A stretch of DNA of 64,000 bases from Bdellovibrionales bacterium (GTDB taxonomy: Bacteria > Bdellovibrionota > Bdellovibrionia > Bdellovibrionales > UBA1609), in assembly GCA_007128005.1 (NCBI GenBank), contig SKYF01000104.1, positions 1,232 through 65,231 of the forward strand, written 5' to 3'. Both the position numbers and the translations under genes were made by a program. Shown here piece by piece: positions 36,473-49,811 of the stretch. The stretch's first letter is position 1; every line of letters starts with the position of its first letter. The notes under the pieces were generated by a model. It searched no databases. It was not told the DNA's origin and worked only from the letters and a program-made list of their open reading frames with translations.

Positions 36473-38143
36473 TCAATAATAAGCTCGATGGGCAATGGGA
36501 AAGCGTCTGCCTCGACCAAAGGAGTGGCTGGATAGCTTTAAAATAGGGGGGGCCTGCCACCTTTTAAACTCAGAGCCCATCATTGCTTTCAGTACCTGTT
36601 GATCCAAAGTTCCCCTCGCTTTGGAGTGACCCTCAACTAACTTCTCCACAACACCATCCAATTGGCTATAGGGGGGCAGGTGATCCTCATCCTTCTGATT
36701 GGCAGCAAGCTCTGCACTGGGTGGCCGATCAATAATGAACTCAGGTATCAGATCCCCTTCCCTTTGAAACAGCCTCGCCAAATCATAGACCTCTCTTTTT
36801 AACAGGTCCCCAATCACACAGATTCCCCCACTGAGATCGCCATAAAGTGTGCTATAGCCCATCGCAAGCTCACTCTTGTTGCTCGTGTTTAGCAACAGGC
36901 TGTGATATTTGTTGGCGTAGGCCATTAAAAAGAGCGCTCTTTGTCTGGCCTGCAAATTCTCGTGGGTCAGACCAAAGTTTCCCATACCAAAAAGCTTATC
37001 CAAGGCCTCAACTTGCCTCTCAAAAAGATCACCAATGGGGAGCTGATAACAGCCAATTCCCAAGCGCTTCGCAAGCTCATGGGTGGCAGCTAAACCCTCC
37101 TCTGAGGTGTAGGGACCAGGCAGAGTCAAAGCCGCGACACTCTCAGGTCCCAGCGCCTCTGCAGCCAAACAGGCCACCACCGCTGAATCCACCCCCCCGC
37201 TGAGTCCTAAATGAACTCTTTGAAATCCCGTTTTGCGAACAAAATCTCTGAGCCCTAAGACAATGGCCTGTCTTCTCTGCTCGGTCAGGTCCTCAGTCAG
37301 CTGATCAAGTCCAGTCTTGCCAGATCTCTTTGGTAGGTGGGAAAAATCAATGACTTTGAAATCCTCCTCAAAGCGACGACACTGAATAAGAGTTCGCCCT
37401 TTGTCATCCACAGCATAACTTCCCCCATCAAATACCATCTCATCCTGTCCCCCGACCATGTTGACGTAAAGCATGGGTGCTCCAAAGTGCCGAGCAGTCT
37501 GAGCGACAACAAACTGCCTGGCTTTGAGTTTTTCATCGGTAAAAGGGGAGGCGCTCAAGTTAACTACCAAATCAATGTCTGTACTTTGAATCTCCGCTAA
37601 AGGATTTTGTCCATAGCGGGCATAAGCAGGAGAGTAAGGACTATTCCAAGCCCAAATATCTTCACAGATGGTTACAATGAGCTTTTTACCTTTGAAACTA
37701 AAGATATTCTTTGCCGTCTCACCCGGTTCAATATGACGACTCTCATCGAACACATCATAGGTGGGAAGAAGTTGCTTGGGAAAAACCCTTGGTTTTTTTC
37801 CCTGCTGTAGGAAAAGAGCCGCATTGTAATACGCCTTTCCTCTTTTCTTTCCACTTGGAACTATGGCCCCAATAAACACTCCGATGCCTTTTGGCAGCTG
37901 CTTTTGTAAGCTGTCTAGGACCTTCATCTGAGCTTCCACAATGCTCTGTCTTTCCAGCAGGTCCATGGGATGATAGCCAAATAAACTGGCTTCCGGAAAC
38001 ACCACCAAATCACAGCCCTCGGAATGGGCCCGCTTGACCCCTCTTAAAATAAGTCTGGAGTTCTCTAAAAAGGCCCCCAAAGTGGGGTTGATCTGCGCCA
38101 AGGCAATTTTAAAAGGCACCATGGCCATGCTCATTAACATCAA
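36473..38143 (-). CDS. nadE: glutamine-dependent NAD+ synthetase (nitrilase domain + NadE domain)
   Basis: N-terminal CN-hydrolase domain (FPEASLFGY, ICEDIW) and the C-terminal PP-loop GLSGGVDSAV. Confidence 0.9.
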   Translation of the reverse strand: MMLMSMAMVPFKIALAQINPTLGAFLENSRLILRGVKRAHSEGCDLVVFPEASLFGYHPMDLLERQSIVEAQMKVLDSLQKQLPKGIGVFIGAIVPSGKKRGKAYYNAALFLQQGKKPRVFPKQLLPTYDVFDESRHIEPGETAKNIFSFKGKKLIVTICEDIWAWNSPYSPAYARYGQNPLAEIQSTDIDLVVNLSASPFTDEKLKARQFVVAQTARHFGAPMLYVNMVGGQDEMVFDGGSYAVDDKGRTLIQCRRFEEDFKVIDFSHLPKRSGKTGLDQLTEDLTEQRRQAIVLGLRDFVRKTGFQRVHLGLSGGVDSAVVACLAAEALGPESVAALTLPGPYTSEEGLAATHELAKRLGIGCYQLPIGDLFERQVEALDKLFGMGNFGLTHENLQARQRALFLMAYANKYHSLLLNTSNKSELAMGYSTLYGDLSGGICVIGDLLKREVYDLARLFQREGDLIPEFIIDRPPSAELAANQKDEDHLPPYSQLDGVVEKLVEGHSKARGTLDQQVLKAMMGSEFKRWQAPPILKLSSHSFGRGRRFPIAHRAYY

Positions 38144-38166: not shown

Positions 38167-39000
38167 TTAGCTGGCATCCGTGGAGTTGCGAATCTGCAGA
38201 GCCTGAGTACCCAAAAAGTACAAAATCGCCAAAATAATCAAGGCGATGAGCATAAAGCGCAGCAGAACCCCAAAAGTCCAGGGCTCCATATCTTCACTGT
38301 CTTTGGCCACAGCAGGGGCCCTCTCTACTTTGATCAAATCCGGGCGCAGATTTTCTTCCTGTTCGCGCTTAAGAGGTGTCATGGGCCGTCTTTCACCCTG
38401 CTCAGGCAGTTTGCGCTCCTCCACCCAACCCATCTGACCGCCGCGAAGCCCCCGGCGGCGGGCCCCTGCTTGGTCGGACATTCCCGTGCCGGCAGACAAA
38501 AACCCCGTGCTTCCCGTGTATCGATCACGGCCGGCCTTTCCTCCCTCAGCCCCTGCCACCATGGTCCGCGGCCTGGAGCTTCGGCCATCAGAGACCCAGC
38601 CTCCGGGCTCTGAAGCCCGATCTCCTCCCGGGCCGGCTCTCACCCGCGCGGCCTCAATGTACTCCCTTCGACCACCATCCCCCTCTCCTCCAGCTCCACC
38701 AGACCCTGCACCACTGCCGTCCCCAGCCCCTGCTGTTCCTAGGCCTACATGAGGTCGGCCACTGGCCAATGAGAACTCGGCAAACTCCTGGTCACAGATT
38801 CCCTGAACTCCCCCTTGGGCCCCCAAGGAGGGCAGCTCCCCTGTCTCAAGAATGCAGGCCAAGTACTCCCCAAAATATCCTTGAGCCCACTGCCGAAAGG
38901 CATCGTTGAATTGATAGATCACCCCCATCATCACGACAAAGGTGATAACCAAAATCAGTAGGTACTCAAGCATGGCCTGCCCACTTTGAGAGTTTCTCAT
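38167..39000 (-). CDS. Flp/TadE-type leader protein with Gly/Arg-rich disordered body and C-terminal TM anchor
   Basis: The ATG at 39000 gives MRNSQSGQAMLEYLLILVITFVVMM, a class-III (G-xxxx-EY) prepilin motif. About 180 aa of G/R/A-rich low complexity follows, encoded by a visibly GC-rich stretch at about 38400-38760. It ends in the TM segment WTFGVLLRFMLIALIILAILYFLG. Divergent from flp. Confidence 0.6.
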   Translation of the reverse strand: MRNSQSGQAMLEYLLILVITFVVMMGVIYQFNDAFRQWAQGYFGEYLACILETGELPSLGAQGGVQGICDQEFAEFSLASGRPHVGLGTAGAGDGSGAGSGGAGGEGDGGRREYIEAARVRAGPGGDRASEPGGWVSDGRSSRPRTMVAGAEGGKAGRDRYTGSTGFLSAGTGMSDQAGARRRGLRGGQMGWVEERKLPEQGERRPMTPLKREQEENLRPDLIKVERAPAVAKDSEDMEPWTFGVLLRFMLIALIILAILYFLGTQALQIRNSTDAS

Positions 39001-39310: not shown

Positions 39311-39502
39311 ATGAAAAAGCTAAAGCAAACATTTCAACATCTCATTGAAGATGAGTCCGGACAAGGTGCCACAGAGTACATCCTTATTATGGTGATTGTT
39401 GTGGCTGTAGTCATCGCCTTCGGAGGAGAATTCAGAAACCGTGTTGTCGGAGCTGCCGAAAGTCTTGGCGCCCAAATCAGTGAAGCTATGAACTTTAGAT
39501 AA
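39311..39502 (+). CDS. flp: Flp-family type IVb pilin
   Basis: 63 aa with the Flp motif SGQGATEYILIMVIVVAVVIAF (G/ATEY processing site followed by a hydrophobic helix). Confidence 0.9.
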   Translation: MKKLKQTFQHLIEDESGQGATEYILIMVIVVAVVIAFGGEFRNRVVGAAESLGAQISEAMNFR

Positions 39503-39530: not shown

Positions 39531-39725
39531 ATGACGACGGAACTGATATTACTTTTAGCCATTTACCTTCTGCTGATTGTGGGAGTGTTTTTTGGCGAAC
39601 TGGGTCCTATTGAGACCTTTCATCGGTCGGCTCCCCGCCTGGGAGCTCAGATCGAGAGAGATATCTCCATAGGCCATGAATTTCAAAGCCCCAGAGCCAA
39701 CAAAGGAGTGCGCTGGGTTGAGTGA
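39531..39725 (+). CDS. small hydrophobic-N-terminus protein of the tad locus (leaderless pilin-like?)
   Basis: 64 aa beginning MTTELILLLAIYLLLIVGVFF. The N-terminus resembles a mature Flp N-terminus without a leader. GGAG lies 9 nt upstream. Confidence 0.45.
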   Translation: MTTELILLLAIYLLLIVGVFFGELGPIETFHRSAPRLGAQIERDISIGHEFQSPRANKGVRWVE

Positions 39726-39731
39726 GGAACA

Positions 39732-40244
39732 ATGATTCATTCAGCAAGTCTATCCATTGTAGCTATTCCCGGATTGATTCTGCTCGCTGGAGTCATTGAT
39801 GACCTGCGCTCAAAAAAGATTCACAACAAACTTGTACTTGCAGCTTTTCTGCTGGCAGTGGTTAGCCAATCCGTGATTCACGGCTTAGGGGCCTTGCCAC
39901 AAGCGGGACTGGCTGTGGGAGCTGCTTTTTTTGTGAGCCTTCCCCTGGTTCTGGCTCGGGCTCTAGGAGCCGGAGATATGAAACTGCTAATGGCTCTGGC
40001 CCCACTTTTTTTATGGACAGATATCCTGTGGATGTTCTTTTACGCTCTCATCTGGGGCGCTCTTTTGGGAATCATTCGCTCCATGCTACAGGGCCAAGCA
40101 GGACAGCTTGTCAGGAACACCTTGGCGCTCACCGGACCCAATCGACCCGATCGCCAGTCTCTTCAGAGTATCCCTTTTTCCGTAGCTCTCCTCTTTGGCT
40201 GGATGACTCACTTGAGCTGGCTGCAAATGGGGGGGTATCTATGA
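39732..40244 (+). CDS. tadV: A24-family prepilin peptidase (TadV/CpaA)
   Basis: 170 aa, polytopic, with both catalytic Asp contexts (GVIDDLRSKKI and LGAGDMKLLMAL). Confidence 0.85.
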   Translation: MIHSASLSIVAIPGLILLAGVIDDLRSKKIHNKLVLAAFLLAVVSQSVIHGLGALPQAGLAVGAAFFVSLPLVLARALGAGDMKLLMALAPLFLWTDILWMFFYALIWGALLGIIRSMLQGQAGQLVRNTLALTGPNRPDRQSLQSIPFSVALLFGWMTHLSWLQMGGYL

Positions 40245-43969: not shown

Positions 43970-43996
43970 TAAAGAACTTCCTAGAAACGCCGATAG
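43970..43996 (+). promoter_or_regulatory. sigma-28 (FliA)-like promoter motif upstream of the CpaE-CpaF gene
   Basis: TAAA (43970-43973), exactly 15 nt of spacer, then GCCGATAG (43989-43996), compared with the consensus TAAA-N15-GCCGATAA. Lies in the 66-nt gap after the secretin. It ends only about 8 nt before the SD GGAGG. Confidence 0.4.
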
Positions 43997-44010: not shown

Positions 44011-46287
44011 GTGGCTGTGGCTCTACATCAAAACTGTCACCTAATCGGTGTTGTTGGCGGCAAGGGCGGGGTGGGAAAAAGCGTTTTTGCGGCCAATTTA
44101 GCCTGCGCCACCCTTCTTGAGATGCGAGCCAAGACCCTACTGATTGATCTAGACGCCAAGAGCTGCGGTGATCAAAGCATTATCTTGGGACTTCGCCCTC
44201 CCAAAAACATTATGGACATCACCAACTCTTCTGTTGCCGTGAACCCTCAGTCCTTGAGCAGCTTGGTAGGACAGCACCCCTCGGGGCTATCCTATATCAG
44301 TGCGGTCAGCAGCCCAGATCAGAGCTTGAATGTGGCCCCAGACCTACTGCGCAAACAGATTTTTTCCCTCAGCCATTTCTACAGCTTTATTATTGTGGAC
44401 CTGGGCTGTGATATCACCCCCGCACAGATGGCCATATTTCAAGATGCCAGTGCCGTTGTCTTGGTCACCACTCCCGAAGTATTGGTTGTCAATCAGACCC
44501 GTAAGCTGCTCAATGACATGATGGCCGCCACCCTTCCTGCTGAACTCTTTCAGGTGGTTTTAAACAAAGTCAGTCGCACCGGTTTAGATCCAAGGGCAAT
44601 TTCTCAAAGTCTCGGGCGGCCCATCATCGGATCCATACCCCAAGACGATATCACCGCCTACGCAGCTCTTCAGCGCTCCACTCCCTTTGTCATTGGGGCT
44701 CCCAACACTCCACTCAGCGCCGCGCACCACGAAGTGGTCCGCCGTCTGACAGGGGGTATCTTACAGAAACTCAAGGCTTTGAGCCGACCCCAACTGAAAT
44801 TTGGCTCTGAGAAGGCAGGAGGCTCCTCCGGCAAGTCCCTACCCACAAAAACTTCAGAGGGGCCTGCCACGAGGAGGGGGGTGTCCTCTGGCAAACAGCG
44901 AGACCCCATCACCCTACTCAAGCTGCAAATCCATAGCGAGCTGATCAAGGAGATGGATCTGAAGAAGGATGTCTCCAACACTCAAGGCGACCCCGAAAAG
45001 GAAAAAGAACTTAGACAAAAAACCCAGAGAGTCATCACTCAGGTGACCGACAAGCTGGGACAGGGTCTCTCCCGAGAGGAGCGCTCACGAGTGATTAAGG
45101 AAGTCCTGGATGAATCTTTGGGTCTAGGCCCCCTAGAGGACCTTCTGGCAGACCCCACAGTCACTGAGATTATGGTGAATGGAGCTGACAAGATCTATAT
45201 GGAAAAAAATGGCAAATTGACCTTGAGCCAAATCACCTTTACTTCGAATCTGCAACTGCGCAATGTGATTGAGAGAATCGTAACCCCCTTAGGGCGACGA
45301 ATTGATGAAAAGACCCCTTATGTGGATGCCAGGCTTGCTGACGGCAGCAGGGTCAATGCTGTCATCGAGCCCCTGTCCATTGATGGGCCAGCTGTCACTA
45401 TCCGTAAATTTCCCCAGGACCGCATCACGGCTGACGACTATGTCACACGCTTCAACTCTATGACCAAGCCGATGGTTGATTTTCTGAGAATCTGCATCGA
45501 ACAGGGCTTGAATGTGATTATATCTGGCGGCACGGGCTCCGGTAAAACAACTCTGCTCAATGTGCTTTCCGGCTTTATTCCGAGCAATGAGCGAATCATC
45601 ACCGTTGAAGACGCCGCCGAACTCCAGCTCAAACAGGAGCATGTGGTTCGGTTGGAAACTCGTCCCGCCAATATGGAGGGCACTGGGGAAATCTCGATCC
45701 GCGACCTGATCCGCAATTCTCTGAGGATGCGCCCGGACCGGATCGTGGTGGGCGAGTGTCGCGATGGGGCCGCACTCGACATGCTTGCAGCTATGAACAC
45801 CGGCCACGATGGTTCAATGACCACGGTTCACTCCAACAGCCCAAAGGAGGCCGTCAGCCGCCTGGAAACTCTGTGTCTGATGGCTGGAATGGAGTTGCCT
45901 GCCAAGGCTATCCGGGAGCAGATTTCTGGAGCCGTTGATTTGATCATTCAAATCAGTCGTCTCAGTGATGGCAGTAGAAAGATCACCAGTATCACCGAGG
46001 TCGTCGGCATGCAGGGCGATGCCATCACCCTTCAAGAGATCTTTCGCTTTAAAGAAGAGGGCTTTGATAAAAACCGAAAAATCATTGGCCGCTTTCAGCC
46101 CATGGGATTGATTCCCACATTTATTGAAAAATTTGAGCAGCGAGGTGTGATGATCCCTAGAAATCTCTTTACAGGGGAGGCCGGCGGTGGAGCCACGCAG
46201 ACTCCCTCTGGGCAAAAGCCAGGACCCCCACGATTCACTCCAGGAGCTCGCCCCCCGCTTAAGAAAGCCAGTGGAGGGGATAGCTGA
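44011..46287 (+). CDS. fused CpaE/TadZ-like ParA/MinD ATPase + CpaF/TadA secretion ATPase
   Basis: The N-terminal ~250 aa carry the deviant Walker [11 protein letters not shown] Ser/Gly/Lys-rich linker follows. The C-terminal ~430 aa are CpaF-like ([14 protein letters not shown], Walker [38 protein letters not shown]). The start may be the GTG at 44017, which has better SD spacing. Confidence 0.85.
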
Positions 46288-47168
46288 TGGTCAACTTCCT
46301 CGTCAGTAATGAGTTCTTGCTGATCCCCCTTTTCGCTGTGGCTGTCTTTGTGGTCTCCTATCTGAATCTTGACCGCATCCTTGATTTTCTACACCGCAAG
46401 AGCCTCGGCAGTCGGGAAGAGGTTTTGCGCCTAATGGACTTGATGTTCGTAGAGACCGACCGCAATAAAGTGACTCTTGCCATGCTGCTGATGAGCTTTG
46501 GACTCGGGGCTTTGTTTTTTTTGGTGGCTTGGCCCAATATCCTTGCAGGTTTCTTTTTTGGTAGTCTCATCACTATGATGGGCTGGTCCGTGCCCAAACT
46601 AGTGATCACGGCCCTTTGGCAGAATCGATGCAATACAGTTGTTGACCAGATGGTCGATGGTCTTACGATCATGGCCAATGGAGTCAAATCGGGTCTAAGT
46701 GTCACTCAGTCCATGGAGAGAGTGGTGGAGAGTATGGGAGGACCCTTAGGCCAGGAGTTTGGTCTTGTCCTCAAAAAAATTCGCCTTGGGATGACTTTAG
46801 AGGAAGCGCTCACTGAGTTTGCCGAACGCGTCCCTCAACAGGACGTTCAAATGTTTGTCACTGGCGTCAATATCCTTAAGGAAACTGGTGGGAATCTGGC
46901 TGAAACCTTTCAGACCATTGTGACGACAATCCGTGAGCGGCAAAAAATCCATAAAAAGATTAAGGCCATGACCCAAATGGCTACCACCCAGGCCATCATC
47001 ATTGTGATGGTGCCTTTTGTCCTGCTCGGTATCTTTGCCGTGGCAGACCCGGCCTACGTCAAGCCCCTTTTCACCTCGGTTTTAGGCTGGATTGCCCTGC
47101 TTTTAATACTCTTTTTGCAAGTAATCGGTGGAGTATTTATGAAAAAAATTGTTACAATTAAAGTGTAA
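46287..47168 (+). CDS. tadB: TadB-type T2SSF platform protein
   Basis: T2SSF cytoplasmic domain (ANGVKSGLSVTQSMERV...LGMTLEEALTEFAERV...LKETGGNLAETF) flanked by TM segments. ATGA overlap with the ATPase gene. Confidence 0.85.
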   Translation: MVNFLVSNEFLLIPLFAVAVFVVSYLNLDRILDFLHRKSLGSREEVLRLMDLMFVETDRNKVTLAMLLMSFGLGALFFLVAWPNILAGFFFGSLITMMGWSVPKLVITALWQNRCNTVVDQMVDGLTIMANGVKSGLSVTQSMERVVESMGGPLGQEFGLVLKKIRLGMTLEEALTEFAERVPQQDVQMFVTGVNILKETGGNLAETFQTIVTTIRERQKIHKKIKAMTQMATTQAIIIVMVPFVLLGIFAVADPAYVKPLFTSVLGWIALLLILFLQVIGGVFMKKIVTIKV

Positions 47169-47193
47169 GCGACAGTTCCTAAAGGAGTTAAAC

Positions 47194-48972
47194 ATGAAGT
47201 TTAATCTGCTCTTGTCCACGGTTTTTGGACTCTTTGTCTCTCAGGCCGCTCTTGGCCTTGTGGATATGAAAAATGCCAACTTTTCCACTACCTTTACGGA
47301 CATCCAAGTCCCTGGGTCGGGCTATGACCTGCGCATTCAGCGCACCTACAACAGCCGCACGATCTTTAGCGGAATTTTTGGCTATGGCTGGTGCTCAGAC
47401 TTTGAGACCAAGCTTCAGGTCACCGCTGAGGGCAACCTCATGGTCACCGAATGTGGTGGGGGACTGGAGATCAACTATACGGCTCAGGATTTTGACCCAA
47501 AGGCTGTGGGCAACACCATCAATACCATTCTCGCAGAAGTAAAAAAGCGCAACCCCAGTATGAGCGAGCAGGCCCTCAATAAGCTTCGCGAGGAAATGCA
47601 GACCAACCAGTTTTTAAGGGAAGAGTTTGCCAGACAGTTAAATCTCACTGGACAAGCCAGTCCGGGAACGAGGTATTCAGCAAGTGGCCGAGAAAGTGAA
47701 AATATCGTCCTGCGCGAAGGGGTTTACGTTCGCACACTTGATGATGGAAGTTTTGAGCGATTCAATCAAAATGGTCAGCTGATCCAGCTCAATGACCGAG
47801 CCGGAAACTACTTAAAAGTCGACTGGAATAACAACCAAATCACCCGCATCACTGACAACAATGGGCGCCAGCTAGTCTTTCACTACGATCCCAAGACAAG
47901 GCGAGTGGCTCGCATTACAGGCCCTGGAGAGCTCAGAGCCACTTATAAATTTGATAGTGAGAACCTGACTGAGGTCACCAATGCATGGAATGAGACCTTC
48001 AAATATAGGTATGATGATCTCCACAATATCGTGCGCATTGACTATCCGGACAAGACTTACCAGGAATTGAGGTACAATAGAGATCGAGATTGGGTGGTTG
48101 GTTTTAGGGATCGCCGGGGCTGCGTTGAAACCTACAATTATGAATCCAACCCCAGAGACCCTAACAATCACTTCTGGTCCACTGTCCAAAAGAAGTGTGG
48201 GGACGAAGTGGTCAACAACAGCCGCTATGAATTTTGGCACAGACCACGAACCGATGGGCCCGGACAGTATCTGCATCGCGTGCGCTCAGATAACAACGGT
48301 GTGATTACAGATATTGTCTACCACCCGGTTTTTGGACTGCCACTTTCAATTGTGAGGAATTCCGAGCGAACAACTTACACCTATAGAAACAACGGACAGG
48401 TGGCGACTAAAGAGGAACCTTTCCGGCATACGACTTTTGCTTATAAAAATCGGTGCAACAAGGTCTCAGACGTCCTCGTCCGCTATTTGGGGCCCGCGGA
48501 GGATCAACTGACCCCCGCCCAAAGGGCTCAGTTGCAGCAACAAAGAGAGGCCGCCAGTGTTGAGGGCAAAGGCAAAGCCACAGCTAAAGCCAGAGCAGAG
48601 ACTTTTCAGGGGCGCGAGGTCTTGAAGACAATCAGAACTCAATACGAGTACAACCATCCCCGTTGCTTTTTGGTCAGAGCAAGAAACTCAGAGGGTCAAA
48701 ATATCACCTTGGCCTATGATGGACGAGGACGCATCAACCGCATTCGCGATCAAGCTCGTAGGGAAATACGGATTGACTATGAGGAGCGCTTTGGCAAGCC
48801 CTCACGGGTGCACCGTCCGGGAATGGGGACCATGGTTGTGACCTACGGCCCTGACGGTGAGATCACCAATGTGGACAGTAAGGAGGGGCCCACCGTAGCC
48901 CTTCAGGTGGCAACTGTATTTAACGGCTTATTGGAAATGATCGCCCCCGCAGTGGGCGACACAAATATATAG
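47194..48972 (+). CDS. secreted YD/RHS-repeat protein (no recognisable toxin tip)
   Basis: ATG at 47194 after AAAGGAG, with a signal peptide (LFVSQAALG). Multiple YD repeats are present (VFHYDPKTRRVARITGPG, TYKFDSENLTEVTN, KYRYDDLHNIVRIDYPD). The track ORF start at 47149 lies inside tadB. Confidence 0.8.
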   Translation: MKFNLLLSTVFGLFVSQAALGLVDMKNANFSTTFTDIQVPGSGYDLRIQRTYNSRTIFSGIFGYGWCSDFETKLQVTAEGNLMVTECGGGLEINYTAQDFDPKAVGNTINTILAEVKKRNPSMSEQALNKLREEMQTNQFLREEFARQLNLTGQASPGTRYSASGRESENIVLREGVYVRTLDDGSFERFNQNGQLIQLNDRAGNYLKVDWNNNQITRITDNNGRQLVFHYDPKTRRVARITGPGELRATYKFDSENLTEVTNAWNETFKYRYDDLHNIVRIDYPDKTYQELRYNRDRDWVVGFRDRRGCVETYNYESNPRDPNNHFWSTVQKKCGDEVVNNSRYEFWHRPRTDGPGQYLHRVRSDNNGVITDIVYHPVFGLPLSIVRNSERTTYTYRNNGQVATKEEPFRHTTFAYKNRCNKVSDVLVRYLGPAEDQLTPAQRAQLQQQREAASVEGKGKATAKARAETFQGREVLKTIRTQYEYNHPRCFLVRARNSEGQNITLAYDGRGRINRIRDQARREIRIDYEERFGKPSRVHRPGMGTMVVTYGPDGEITNVDSKEGPTVALQVATVFNGLLEMIAPAVGDTNI

Positions 48973-49007
48973 ATTTTAATTTTTTGACTCTAAGGAGATA
49001 GAACAAT

Positions 49008-49361
49008 ATGAGATCCTCCCCTTTCCACTCAGTGCTTATCGCCACCTTGACTCTGATAGTTTTTCTCTCAGGACAGCTCGCCTTCGGCCAGCAACAGTCC
49101 TCTCGGCGGGGAGCTCCAGGTTCAACCGCCCAACAGGAACTCGATAGATATAGGGGGGGGCCCTCCAACCAGGATCTGTCCGGTCCACAGACCTACGCCG
49201 TCAGCACTGACCAGGATTCCTGCACCGATAAGAGATACTGCCAGGGACGGGTCAACTCCACCGGAAGATTTCACAGCCAAAGCAGAGCCATGGAGCAAGT
49301 CAGACTTTATTTGGGTGAGGGCGCAAAACCTGGTCCAGACGGCTCAGAGACAGTTGAGTAG
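49008..49361 (+). CDS. small secreted protein, hit-locus (Bd0108)-like by position
   Basis: SD AAGGAG upstream and a signal peptide (LTLIVFLSGQLAFG). The mature part is Q/S/G/D-rich. It contains ACCAGGAT at 49168 and 49210 (42-bp spacing) and a G8 run at 49153-49160. Confidence 0.65.
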   Translation: MRSSPFHSVLIATLTLIVFLSGQLAFGQQQSSRRGAPGSTAQQELDRYRGGPSNQDLSGPQTYAVSTDQDSCTDKRYCQGRVNSTGRFHSQSRAMEQVRLYLGEGAKPGPDGSETVE

Positions 49362-49381
49362 CTCCGGTACAGTCGGCCAAT

Positions 49382-49402
49382 AGTGTCTCAAGATGAGACA
49401 CT
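49382..49402 (+). terminator. hairpin 20 nt after the small secreted gene (possible terminator, no U-tract)
   Basis: Perfect 9-bp stem AGTGTCTCA/TGAGACACT with a 3-nt loop. Confidence 0.35.
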
Positions 49403-49514
49403 GGGCTCAAGAGCGTCCCTGCACTGTCGAATATCTGGACAGTTTACAGCCTAGATGAAATTATAAATGCTTAATTTTATTATGATTTTTGTGTCTCCCC
49501 TCACTGTCTAGAGG

Positions 49515-49530
49515 TGGCACACTTCTGGCT
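49515..49530 (+). promoter_or_regulatory. sigma-54-like -24/-12 element
   Basis: TGGCAC-ACTTC-TGGCT compared with the consensus TGGCAC-N5-TTGC(A/T). GG and GC are correctly spaced, with one mismatch in the -12 box. It lies 42 nt upstream of the ATG at 49572. Confidence 0.35.
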
Positions 49531-49571
49531 ATAGAGTAAGGTAAGTGCTCATTAAAGGAAAGGAGCTGAAT

Positions 49572-49811
49572 ATGAAAACCTCAACTCTACTGATAGCCCT
49601 GATGTTAGGTTTGGCTGCAGGACCTGCCATGGCGGCCTCCCATAATAACCTTCAAGCTGTGAATGGAAAAGGTGCTGACAACTGCCCCTACAAAGCCGCT
49701 GCATCCAGAGATGAAAACCGAGCTCAGGCAAGAGAGCTAGCCTCAAGGTTGATCCAGCCTGGCCGCCCTCAATCTCGCCAACAGCAAAACTCTCGCACTA
49801 TTCGCAATTAA
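49572..49811 (+). CDS. small secreted hypothetical protein
   Basis: The ATG at 49572 follows AAAGGAAAGGAG. Signal peptide MKTSTLLIALMLGLAAGPAMA. 79 aa, with a basic, Q-rich C-terminus. Confidence 0.55.
   Translation: MKTSTLLIALMLGLAAGPAMAASHNNLQAVNGKGADNCPYKAAASRDENRAQARELASRLIQPGRPQSRQQQNSRTIRN

What the first reader, a model, noticed from the sequence alone, without database searches (positions are those of the whole stretch)
38167..39000. Divergent from flp: a protein with an Flp/TadE-type leader, about 180 aa of Gly/Arg-rich disorder and a C-terminal TM anchor
- The N-terminus MRNSQSGQAMLEYLLILVITFVV carries the G-xxxx-EY class-III signal used by the TadV peptidase encoded 0.7 kb away.
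- Unlike ordinary pseudopilins, the body is an extended G/R/A/E low-complexity region. It is encoded by a visibly GC-rich stretch (about 38400-38760) in an otherwise moderate-GC window.
- The protein ends in a second hydrophobic helix (WTFGVLLRFMLIALIILAILYFLG).
- I do not recognise a pilin-like protein anchored at both ends with an RGG-like spacer as a described Tad component.
- It could be a ruler, tether or regulatory substrate of the prepilin peptidase.
Basis: partly seen in the sequence, partly recalled or inferred. Interest (0 to 1): 0.6.

Follow-up and report, generated by a model that had tools for sequence, protein, structure and literature searches.

The report
Membrane-tethered Flp-like pilin protein family
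The gene is real and encodes an unannotated protein, conserved across predatory Bdellovibrio-type bacteria, that starts like a Tad/Flp pilus subunit but is tied back to the inner membrane by a floppy spacer of conserved length and a second membrane helix, which no described pilus component has.

Summary
Window 38167..39000 (-) encodes a 277-aa protein with five parts:
- a Flp-type class III leader (MRNSQSG|QAMLEY);
- a hydrophobic helix;
- a roughly 155-aa Gly-rich spacer predicted to be disordered;
- a C-terminal TM helix with a conserved GGQALQI-KS tail.

Codon-position differences against the closest relative show that the minus strand is coding. The Pro-rich plus-strand ORF is a shadow.

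The family has 934 50%-identity clusters and occurs only in Bdellovibrionales-type genomes. Every member is called "hypothetical" and none has a Pfam or NCBIfam match. G-1, Q+1, E+5, both Cys and the tail Gln are invariant. Spacer length is held at 198±8 aa although its sequence cannot be aligned. The N-terminus matches the neighbouring Flp family (hhalign 97.3%).

The gene is divergent from flp-tadV in 53 of about 69 informative loci. In genus Bdellovibrio, including B. bacteriovorus 109J, it lies away from tad, next to a TPR gene and nadE, and the 109J annotation cuts off the pilin motif.

Best reading: a prepilin-peptidase-processed, membrane-tethered pilin-like accessory of the Tad/type IV filament machinery. 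The ruler, leash or sensor roles are untested. This is a new variant of a known kind.

The parts
38167..39000 (-). Whole gene: 277-aa membrane-tethered Flp-like protein, including the stop codon at 38167-38169. NCBI calls a 298-aa version from an upstream GTG.
   Evidence: Homologs support the ATG at 39000; the closest relative, P0002, is also 277 aa and starts MRPSESGQAVLEY.
38980..39000 (-). Leader peptide MRNSQSG, ending in the invariant Gly at position -1.
   Evidence: G7 is invariant in A4. Leaders have a median net charge of +2. The G-x4-[ED] motif is present in 108 of 116 homologs.
38914..38979 (-). Mature N-terminus QAMLEY... with invariant Q+1 and E+5, plus the hydrophobic alpha1-N/TM1 (residues 8-29).
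   Evidence: hhalign against the local Flp family gives 97.3%, E 2e-11, over 29 columns. AF2 predicts a helix over residues 6-53 with pLDDT about 80.
38746..38913 (-). Conserved acidic periplasmic module (residues 30-85): YQFNDAF..W...YFGEYLAC49ILETGELPSLG....C69...F..FSLASGRP. The two Cys are invariant.
   Evidence: Net charge has a median of -4.
38281..38745 (-). Gly-rich, net-basic spacer predicted to be disordered (residues 86-240). This is the GC-rich stretch.
   Evidence: pLDDT is below 50 over about residues 90-190 and 50-57 up to about 220. The Cys49-to-TM2 distance is 198±8 aa in 225 homologs.
38506..38520 (-). YTGST (residues 161-165): the only clearly conserved island inside the spacer. 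It reads Y[TA]GS across the order.
38209..38280 (-). Second transmembrane helix WTFGVLLRFMLIALIILAILYFLG (residues 241-264).
   Evidence: helix 243-275, pLDDT 85-90. Two hydrophobic segments occur in 115 of 116 homologs.
38170..38208 (-). Short conserved C-terminal tail TQALQIRNSTDAS (family consensus GGQALQI.KS). Q266 is invariant. The tail is predicted to be cytoplasmic.
38376..38909 (+). Pro-rich antisense ORF. It is a shadow of the GC-rich coding region, not a gene.
   Evidence: Codon-position argument. No support from homologs.
39311..39502 (+). Divergent neighbour: flp major prepilin (…DESG|QGATEYIL…).
   Evidence: (Flp1_like, 1e-05).
39732..40244 (+). TadV-type prepilin peptidase (A24 domain only). 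It is the candidate processing enzyme.
   Evidence: PF01478, 6e-12.

Best explanation
The gene encodes an inner-membrane protein built on a Flp-type prepilin N-terminus.

Proposed topology and processing (all inferred):
1. The basic leader stays in the cytoplasm and is removed after Gly7 by the prepilin peptidase. That is TadV here, and PilD in Bdellovibrio species that lack TadV.
2. The hydrophobic alpha1 helix, with Glu at +5, spans the membrane and continues into the periplasm.
3. The helix ends in an invariant acidic CLLETGELP motif. A 20-residue loop is probably closed by a Cys49-Cys69 disulfide.
4. A spacer of about 155-160 residues, predicted to be flexible and conserved in length, leads back to a second transmembrane helix. 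The short conserved tail of that helix faces the cytoplasm.

Proposed function (inferred): the pilin module engages the Tad (type IVc) assembly platform or the pilus base in the way a minor pilin does. The C-terminal anchor prevents it from leaving the membrane. The protein would therefore act as a tethered accessory that limits, anchors or reports pilus assembly.

What is shown: gene reality, architecture, family-wide conservation, homology of the N-terminus to Flp, and frequent linkage to flp-tadV.

What is inferred: cleavage, topology, the disulfide, and participation in Tad function.
For: Conservation of the pilin signature:
- G-1, Q+1 and E+5 are invariant across two subfamilies that share only about 25% identity. 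A charged residue kept inside a TM helix makes sense for a pilin, not for a plain anchor.
- Glu5 pairs with the N-terminal amine of the neighbouring subunit in type IV filaments (review PMC10191384).
- The profile-profile match to the neighbouring Flp family is 97.3%, E 2e-11.
- 11 of 30 members hit Flp1_like weakly.
- The lineage-specific 'SGQ' junction is shared with Flp and pseudopilin 1 of the same locus.

Topology: leaders carry a median net charge of +2 and the post-helix module -4, which fits N-in/C-out. Two invariant Cys fit a periplasmic disulfide.

Structure prediction: AF2 gives a 48-residue pilin-like alpha1 helix, a disordered middle and a confident C-terminal helix.

Genomic linkage: the gene is divergent from flp-'trimmed flp'-tadV-3 pseudopilins-rcpC-secretin-tadZA-tadB in 53 of about 69 loci that have enough upstream sequence.

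Spacer length: 198±8 aa (CV 4%) in 225 homologs, although the sequence is unalignable.

Family uniformity: the family is large and uniform in length, with 934 clusters and the best 150 all 252-324 aa.
Against: - No experimental data exist for any member.
- The window protein itself has no Pfam or NCBIfam hit. Flp1_like hits in relatives are below the gathering threshold, and TadE is not matched.
- In about 16 loci with long upstream flanks, including cultured Bdellovibrio sp. HCB288, HCB337 and HCB2-146 and B. bacteriovorus 109J, no tad gene lies within 8 kb. There the constant neighbours are a TPR gene, DUF2203 and nadE. Linkage to tad could therefore partly reflect inherited synteny.
- The gene sits 23 nt upstream of housekeeping nadE on the same strand, and is 13 nt or less from it in 14 of 61 loci.
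- The spacer is net-basic in 89% of members. By the positive-inside rule that would mildly favour a cytoplasmic loop.
- A pilin anchored at its C-terminus has no precedent, so polymerisation may be impossible.
- The most recent Tad inventory of B. bacteriovorus (bioRxiv 10.64898/2026.07.08.737194) does not list such a component.
Confidence: 0.45

Rival explanations
1. Unprocessed hairpin membrane protein. The Flp-like N-terminus is an evolutionary relic used only as a TM anchor. The protein is a general envelope or periplasm-spanning factor, for example a partner of the neighbouring TPR protein, and is unrelated to pili.
For: - The gene keeps its place beside a divergent TPR gene in 48 of 80 loci, and beside DUF2203/nadE, even where tad is not adjacent.
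- It is found throughout the order, like a housekeeping envelope gene.
- The best-conserved element is the periplasmic CLLETGELP module, not the TM helix.
Against: - Invariance of G-1, Q+1 and E+5 over deep divergence is hard to explain for a plain anchor.
- The N-terminus is statistically homologous to the co-located Flp.
- All five N-terminal motif-bearing ORFs of the 64-kb window sit in this one 2.3-kb stretch.
Confidence: 0.25
2. Leash, ruler or mechanosensor, a specific form of the main model. The processed pilin module is incorporated at the base of a growing Tad pilus. The spacer of about 160 aa then becomes taut and stops extension, triggers retraction, or signals pilus state to the cytoplasm through TM2 and its conserved tail. 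An extended-chain estimate of 0.36-0.38 nm per residue gives a reach of roughly 55-60 nm (my calculation).
For: - Spacer length is conserved (CV 4%) without sequence conservation.
- E+5 is retained. Tip-capping minor pilins lack it (PMC10191384).
- The cytoplasmic tail is conserved, with Q266 invariant.
- Capeness 2013 postulated an unidentified membrane protein relaying pilus state in B. bacteriovorus (PMC3818213).
- A hit-like YD-repeat gene plus a small secreted ORF lie at the other end of this tad cluster.
Against: - The idea rests purely on architecture.
- There is no evidence that a C-terminally anchored pilin can be extracted from the membrane.
- The YTGS island and, in genus Bdellovibrio, further conserved spacer blocks (GKVVEIAL, GLTE.ERKKLEKK) suggest the spacer also carries binding sites rather than being a pure ruler.
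Confidence: 0.15
3. Decoy or regulatory substrate. The protein competes with Flp for the prepilin peptidase or the platform, or cleavage switches its activity, so that it tunes the pilin pool rather than being structural.
For: - It has the same cleavage junction as Flp.
- It is transcribed divergently from flp, sharing a 310-bp control region.
Against: This does not explain the invariant periplasmic module, the length-conserved spacer or the conserved C-terminal tail. There is no expression data.
Confidence: 0.1
4. Not a gene, or the plus-strand Pro-rich ORF 38376..38909 is the real product.
For: The + ORF is 177 aa and the region is GC-rich, which inflates ORF lengths.
Against: - The minus frame shows a position-3 excess of differences; in the + frame this excess would fall on codon position 2.
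- Hundreds of homologs keep the N- and C-terminal conserved blocks in one frame across a spacer of variable sequence.
Confidence: 0.01

Closest known systems
Flp/Fap major pilins of Tad (type IVc) pili (Pfam PF04964 / PF16982)
   Same: - Short basic leader, Gly at -1, Glu-Tyr at +5/+6 and a hydrophobic alpha1 helix.
- Encoded next to tadV.
- The profile-profile match to the local Flp family is 97.3%.
   Different: - Flp is about 60 aa and ends soon after the helix.
- This protein adds a Cys-containing module, a spacer of about 155 aa and a second TM helix.
- It does not reach either Pfam gathering score.
TadE/TadF (and KilL/KilM) minor pilins or pseudopilins
   Same: Class III signal processed by TadV. 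Low-abundance accessory pilins encoded in tad loci. Three such ORFs lie 1.2-2.6 kb away in this window.
   Different: TadE/F have a beta-rich globular head and no C-terminal anchor. PF07811 is not matched (1 of 30 members, E 0.93).
TadG / KilN large minor pilins
   Same: A pilin-like N-terminal helix followed by an extra C-terminal portion. Associated with Tad.
   Different: TadG carries folded vWA-like or variable domains exposed at the pilus tip (PMC12075869). It has no disordered spacer and no second TM helix.
Bd0108 (hit-locus protein) of B. bacteriovorus
   Same: A disordered protein encoded beside the Bdellovibrio tad cluster and implicated in pilus extrusion and retraction (PMC3818213, PMC4267844).
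   Different: - Bd0108 is 101 aa, Sec-secreted and has no TM helix.
- It lies at the tadB end of the operon.
- The window has separate candidates for Bd0109 and Bd0108 at 47149-49361.
- Sequence homology was not tested.
Bitopic inner-membrane assembly proteins of other type IV filaments (PilN/PilO, GspL/GspM)
   Same: Inner-membrane anchored periplasmic accessories. Tad systems lack recognisable equivalents (PMC10191384).
   Different: Those proteins have no class III signal, no second TM helix and folded periplasmic domains. No sequence or fold similarity was detected.

Membership tests
Type IV pilin-like proteins (class III signal peptide) | Short, positively charged leader ending in Gly (-1). 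| tested here: met
   MRNSQSG. G7 is invariant in A4. Leaders have a median net charge of +2.
Type IV pilin-like proteins (class III signal peptide) | Glu at +5 followed by about 20 hydrophobic residues (alpha1-N). | tested here: met
   E12 is invariant. The hydrophobic segment covers about residues 6-35. AF2 predicts a helix over 6-53.
Type IV pilin-like proteins (class III signal peptide) | Cleavage by a dedicated prepilin peptidase. | not testable with these tools
   A TadV-type A24 peptidase is encoded 0.73 kb away. Cleavage itself needs N-terminal mapping.
Type IV pilin-like proteins (class III signal peptide) | Incorporation into a filament, or priming of its assembly. | not testable with these tools
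   No data. The C-terminal anchor makes free incorporation doubtful.
Flp/Fap pilin (PF04964) / Flp1_like (PF16982) | Score above the Pfam gathering threshold. | tested here: not met
   The window protein has no hit. 11 of 30 relatives hit PF16982 only below threshold, best E 1.5e-4.
Flp/Fap pilin (PF04964) / Flp1_like (PF16982) | Homology of the N-terminal leader and helix to bona fide Flp. | tested here: met
   hhalign of A2 against local Flp alignment A3: probability 97.3%, E 2.1e-11, 29 columns.
Flp/Fap pilin (PF04964) / Flp1_like (PF16982) | Small size (about 50-80 aa) with no further membrane segment. | tested here: not met
   277 aa with a second TM helix.
TadE-like pseudopilin (PF07811) | Match to the TadE N-terminal model. 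| tested here: not met
   Only 1 of 30 members matches, at E 0.93.
Tad locus component | Conserved genomic linkage with tad genes. | tested here: inconclusive
   Adjacent and divergent in 53 of about 69 informative loci. Not adjacent in genus Bdellovibrio, including B. bacteriovorus 109J.
C-terminal sorting signals (PEP-CTERM, GlyGly-CTERM, MYXO-CTERM and similar) | Match to an NCBIfam/TIGRFAM sorting-signal model. In those signals the motif precedes the TM helix and a basic tail follows it. | tested here: not met
   No NCBIfam hit at E ≤ 0.1. Here the conserved GGQ motif follows the TM helix and the tail is not basic.
Bd0108 hit-locus protein | Small Sec-secreted disordered protein encoded after the YD-repeat gene at the tadB end. 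| tested here: not met
   Architecture and position both differ. Sequence comparison was not possible because no Bd0108 sequence was held.

The most novel reading that the evidence does not exclude
The protein is a molecular leash. Once cleaved, its pilin module enters the base of the Tad pilus. The length-conserved spacer of about 160 aa sets how far the module can be lifted. Tension, or its release, is passed through the second TM helix and the invariant cytoplasmic tail. This would give Bdellovibrio-type predators a built-in ruler or mechanosensor for pilus extension and retraction. It could be the 'unidentified membrane protein' postulated to couple pilus state to the attack-to-growth switch in the hit-locus (Bd0108/Bd0109) model.
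Probability: 0.12. Interest if true: 0.85.

Novelty: new variant of a known kind. Interest (0 to 1): 0.6.

Why it matters
Tad pili have recently been shown to be essential for prey attachment and invasion by B. bacteriovorus and for contact killing by Myxococcus. How a single ATPase switches between extension and retraction is unknown, and so is how pilus state is relayed inward.

A pilin-like protein that cannot leave the membrane, with a spacer whose length rather than sequence is conserved, is a concrete candidate for such control. It is present in the genetically tractable B. bacteriovorus. There, the deposited 109J gene call starts 33 codons too late and removes the pilin signature, which may be why it is missing from Tad inventories.

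Independently of function, the work defines an unannotated family with at least 934 50%-identity clusters. It also gives a rare bacterial example of a class III signal on a protein that is not a conventional pilin.

Tried and rejected
- Direct Pfam and NCBIfam scans of the protein gave no meaningful hit. The CrgA hit (E 0.015) falls on the C-terminal TM helix and is noise.
- Foldseek of the AF2 model against PDB found nothing, as expected for isolated helices plus disorder.
- A profile search against PDB sequences found nothing.
- Rfam and tandem-repeat scans of the region found nothing, so the GC-rich stretch is neither an RNA gene nor a repeat array.
- Horizontal transfer as the cause of the GC rise is rejected. 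The same spacer is GC-enriched in 70 relatives and the gene is syntenic.
- The plus-strand ORF is rejected.
- A sigma-28 promoter pattern (TAAA-N13-17-CCGATA) was not found upstream of flp or the target. Its only match is upstream of tadZA.
- The sigma-70 scan of the intergenic region gave only weak matches.
- A literature search for HD100 locus tags near the ortholog (Bd380x-383x) gave nothing usable.
- An exact look-up of the NCBI 298-aa version (P0001) to name the source genome found no record.
- The neighbouring TPR protein could not be assigned to TadD. It has only generic TPR hits and no lipobox.
For B. bacteriovorus this is known from the literature.
Full report
**1. What is there**

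Window 38167..39000 on the minus strand is an ORF of 277 codons starting at ATG 39000. A longer TTG or GTG start is possible, and NCBI aa. The closest relative, P0002, is also 277 aa and begins MRPSESGQAVLEY, which supports the ATG.

It has five parts:
- a 7-residue leader (MRNSQSG);
- QAMLEY followed by a hydrophobic stretch;
- a Gly/Arg/Ala-rich region (residues 86-240);
- the helix WTFGVLLRFMLIALIILAILYFLG followed by the 13-residue tail TQALQIRNSTDAS.

Kyte-Doolittle analysis gives exactly two hydrophobic segments.

GC is 0.61-0.69 across 38325-38849 against 0.493 for the window. There is no tandem repeat and no Rfam match.

**2. Which strand codes**

I codon-aligned the gene with its closest relative (L081, 58% identity). 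Differences fall 97/67/164 on codon positions 1/2/3 overall. Within the low-complexity spacer they fall 66/47/98. The plus-strand Pro-rich ORF 38376..38909 is offset so that this most variable site would be its codon position 2. It is therefore a shadow ORF.

Independently, hundreds of homologs keep the conserved N- and C-terminal blocks in one frame across a spacer of variable sequence.

The GC rise is a consequence of Gly, Ala and Arg codons. The spacer DNA is GC-richer than its locus in nearly all of 70 relatives (median +6.9 points). The window, at +15.7, is the extreme.

**3. A conserved, unannotated family**

- The word-indexed search found 168 relatives of 243-324 aa. All are 'hypothetical' and none has a Pfam domain.
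- A profile search of 1.84 billion cluster representatives found 934 at E ≤ 1e-3, of which 614 are at E ≤ 1e-30. The best 150 are all 252-324 aa with full-length matches.
- A scan of one genome per species found 115 genomes. The 80 kept are essentially all labelled Bdellovibrionales, Pseudobdellovibrionaceae or Bdellovibrionia, and include cultured Bdellovibrio sp. HCB288, HCB337 and HCB2-146.
- Using the HCB288 protein as query brought in a second subfamily of 207 hits covering genus Bdellovibrio, including several B. bacteriovorus strains.

In a joint alignment of both subfamilies (about 25% identity between them), the invariant residues are G7, Q8, E12, Y46, C49, L51, G54, L56, P57, C69 and Q266. 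These are the cleavage junction, the +5 Glu, the CLLETGELP motif, the second Cys and a Gln in the C-terminal tail.

The G-x4-[ED] motif is present in 108 of 116 members of the first subfamily; the remainder look like mis-called starts. Two hydrophobic segments are present in 115 of 116.

**4. Anatomy across the family**

- Leaders have a median length of 19 aa and a net charge of +2.
- The post-helix module is 52-55 aa with a net charge of -4.
- The spacer has a median length of 159 aa. Its composition is G 19%, S 15%, R 8.7%, K 7.4%, and it is net positive in 89% of members.
- The tail is about 9 aa.
- The only clear conserved island in the spacer is Y[TA]GS (residues 161-165 here). Genus Bdellovibrio has additional blocks (GKVVEIAL, GLTE.ERKKLEKK).
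- The distance from the invariant Cys49 to the second TM helix is 198±8 aa (CV 4%; range 180-230) in 225 homologs, although the sequence in between cannot be aligned.

AlphaFold2 with the 116-sequence alignment gave these predictions:
- a single 48-residue helix over residues 6-53, pLDDT about 80;
- a short helix over residues 68-72;
- no confident structure from about residue 90 to 220: pLDDT is below 50 to about residue 190 and 50-57 up to about 220;
- a confident helix over residues 243-275, pLDDT 85-90.

pTM is 0.31, so the relative arrangement of these elements is not predicted. Foldseek and a PDB profile search found nothing.

**5. Relation to pilins**

- The window protein has no Pfam or NCBIfam hit.
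- Scanned one by one, 11 of 30 relatives hit Flp1_like (PF16982) below threshold, with a best E of 1.5e-4. Only one touches TadE, at E 0.93.
- I built an alignment of the Flp proteins encoded next to the relatives (A3, consensus …KDESGQGATEYILLLVVVV…). A profile-profile comparison with the family gave 97.3% probability, E 2e-11, over the 29 columns covering the end of the leader, the junction and the helix.
- The 'SGQ' junction is shared by the target, Flp and the first pseudopilin-like ORF of this locus.
- A scan of the whole 64-kb window for the motif plus a hydrophobic run found seven matches. Five are at N-termini and all five lie between 38.9 and 41.2 kb.
- The peptidase at 39732..40244 is a short, A24-only TadV type.

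The N-terminus is therefore a genuine Flp-type class III signal plus alpha1-N. Family membership in the Pfam sense is not met.

**6. Genomic context**

In the window the gene is divergent from the following cluster:
- flp (39311..39502);
- a leaderless 'trimmed flp' (39531..39725);
- tadV;
- three pseudopilin-like ORFs;
- rcpC;
- the secretin;
- a TadZ-TadA fusion;
- one TadB/C-like gene.

On its own strand the target is followed 23 nt later by nadE.

Across the 80 related loci:
- The same divergent tad cluster is present in 53, which is 53 of about 69 loci that have enough upstream sequence.
- About 16 loci with long flanks have no tad gene within 8 kb.
- In 48 of 80 loci the gene immediately divergent from the target is a secreted TPR protein. 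It lies between flp and the target when tad is present. This window lacks it.
- Downstream the order is target, then an optional DUF2203 gene, then nadE in 61 loci. The target is 13 nt or less from nadE in 14 of those 61.

In B. bacteriovorus 109J (locus L082) the arrangement is rimO, then the TPR gene on the opposite strand, then target, DUF2203 and nadE, at about 3.75 Mb of the chromosome. The main tad locus of the species is Bd0109-Bd0119 (PMC5430801). According to the literature, B. bacteriovorus lacks TadV and PilD processes Flp1 (bioRxiv 10.64898/2026.07.08.737194).

The deposited 109J gene call (Bb109J_c3557) starts at an internal Met. The in-frame upstream ATG restores MLLRVKKSQLTSGLPSERGQAALEYVLMLV…. 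The pilin signature is therefore hidden by the annotation in the model species.

**7. Interpretation**

The invariant G-1/Q+1/E+5, the homology to Flp, the basic leader with an acidic post-helix module, and the two invariant Cys together argue for pilin-like insertion (N-in, C-out), cleavage by a prepilin peptidase and a periplasmic disulfide-closed loop.

The second helix must then return the chain to the cytoplasm. That leaves a short, conserved tail inside the cell and a loop of about 210 residues in the periplasm.

A Glu inside a TM helix is kept in pilins because it pairs with the N-terminal amine of the neighbouring subunit or drives docking into the machine. Tip-capping minor pilins lack it (PMC10191384). 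I therefore favour a pilin-like accessory that engages the Tad platform or pilus base but is held in the membrane.

The tight conservation of spacer length without sequence conservation is what a tether or ruler would show. An extended chain of 0.36-0.38 nm per residue over about 155-160 residues gives roughly 55-60 nm (my estimate). This does not prove that role.

The main counter-arguments are these:
- Linkage to tad is incomplete.
- The protein is constantly associated with a TPR gene and nadE instead.
- The spacer is basic.
- There are no experimental data at all.

The chief rival is an unprocessed hairpin envelope protein that merely inherited a pilin-like anchor.

**8. Comparison with what is known**

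The Tad inventories and reviews I read list Flp, TadE/F/G (KilK-O), TadV, TadA, TadB/C, TadZ, RcpA/B/C and TadD. None is a pilin-like protein with a C-terminal membrane anchor.

Bd0108 is the disordered hit-locus protein beside the B. bacteriovorus tad operon. It is Sec-secreted, 101 aa, has no TM helix, and sits at the tadB end. This window has its own YD-repeat gene plus small secreted ORFs in that position, so the target is not its counterpart.

Known C-terminal sorting signals are not matched.

**9. Verdict**

The object is a new architectural variant of a type IV (Flp-type) pilin-like protein. It defines a sizeable, order-specific, unannotated family that includes the model predator. Function is inferred, not shown. 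Interest is 0.6.

Noticed in passing
window 47149-49811 (+): A YD/RHS-repeat protein (607 aa; DUF6531 + RHS_repeat) lies directly after the single tadB/C-like gene. It is followed by two small ORFs with Sec-type signal peptides and polar, low-complexity bodies: 49008-49361 (117 aa) and 49545-49811 (88 aa from the GTG, with a probable internal ATG start). This mirrors the bd0109/bd0108 'hit' locus at the tadB end of the B. bacteriovorus tad operon. Sequence homology to Bd0108/Bd0109 was not tested.
   Followed up: partly
L082:8001-8867 (B. bacteriovorus 109J, AP029059.1): The deposited gene call Bb109J_c3557 starts at an internal Met (MLVIIVALL…). An in-frame ATG 33 codons upstream restores the leader and the GQAALEY motif. 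Several other family members (P0208, P0017, P0008, P0104) look similarly truncated.
   Followed up: yes
window 43970-43995 (+): The sigma-28 (FliA)-like promoter TAAAGAACTTCCTAGAAACGCCGATA lies 16 nt upstream of the tadZA start. It is the only match to TAAA-N13-17-CCGATA in the 64 kb; 19 of 100 shuffles gave at least one match. It fits the reported FliA control of the Bdellovibrio tad operon (PMC5430801).
   Followed up: partly
window 44011-46287 (+) and 46287-47168 (+): A TadZ (MinD/ParA-like)-TadA fusion ATPase of 758 aa is present, as recently described for B. bacteriovorus. Only one T2SSF-type platform gene is in the cluster, which suggests that tadC lies elsewhere.
   Followed up: partly
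window 39732-40244 (+): A short TadV-type A24 prepilin peptidase is present in this tad cluster and in 53 related loci. [quoted passage not shown] Its presence or absence therefore differs between Bdellovibrionales lineages.
   Followed up: partly
window 39531-39725 (+): A leaderless 'trimmed flp' ORF (MTTELILLLAIYLLL…) lies immediately after flp and is conserved in 53 of 80 loci. It corresponds to the flp2 type described for Bdellovibrio tad loci. It has the +5-type Glu at position 4 but no leader and no cleavage-site Gly.
   Followed up: partly
L005:6837-7919 (-), L058:6917-7939 (-), L067:6863-7939 (-), L082:6569-7900 (-): A secreted TPR-repeat protein (340-443 aa, no lipobox) is encoded directly divergent from the target in 48 of 80 loci, including every locus without adjacent tad genes. 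It is absent from this window. It may be a functional partner.
   Followed up: partly
window 36473-38143 (-): Glutamine-dependent NAD synthetase (nadE; CN_hydrolase + NAD_synthase) starts 23 nt after the target's stop codon on the same strand, which looks like an operon. In most relatives a DUF2203 gene is inserted between the two.
   Followed up: partly
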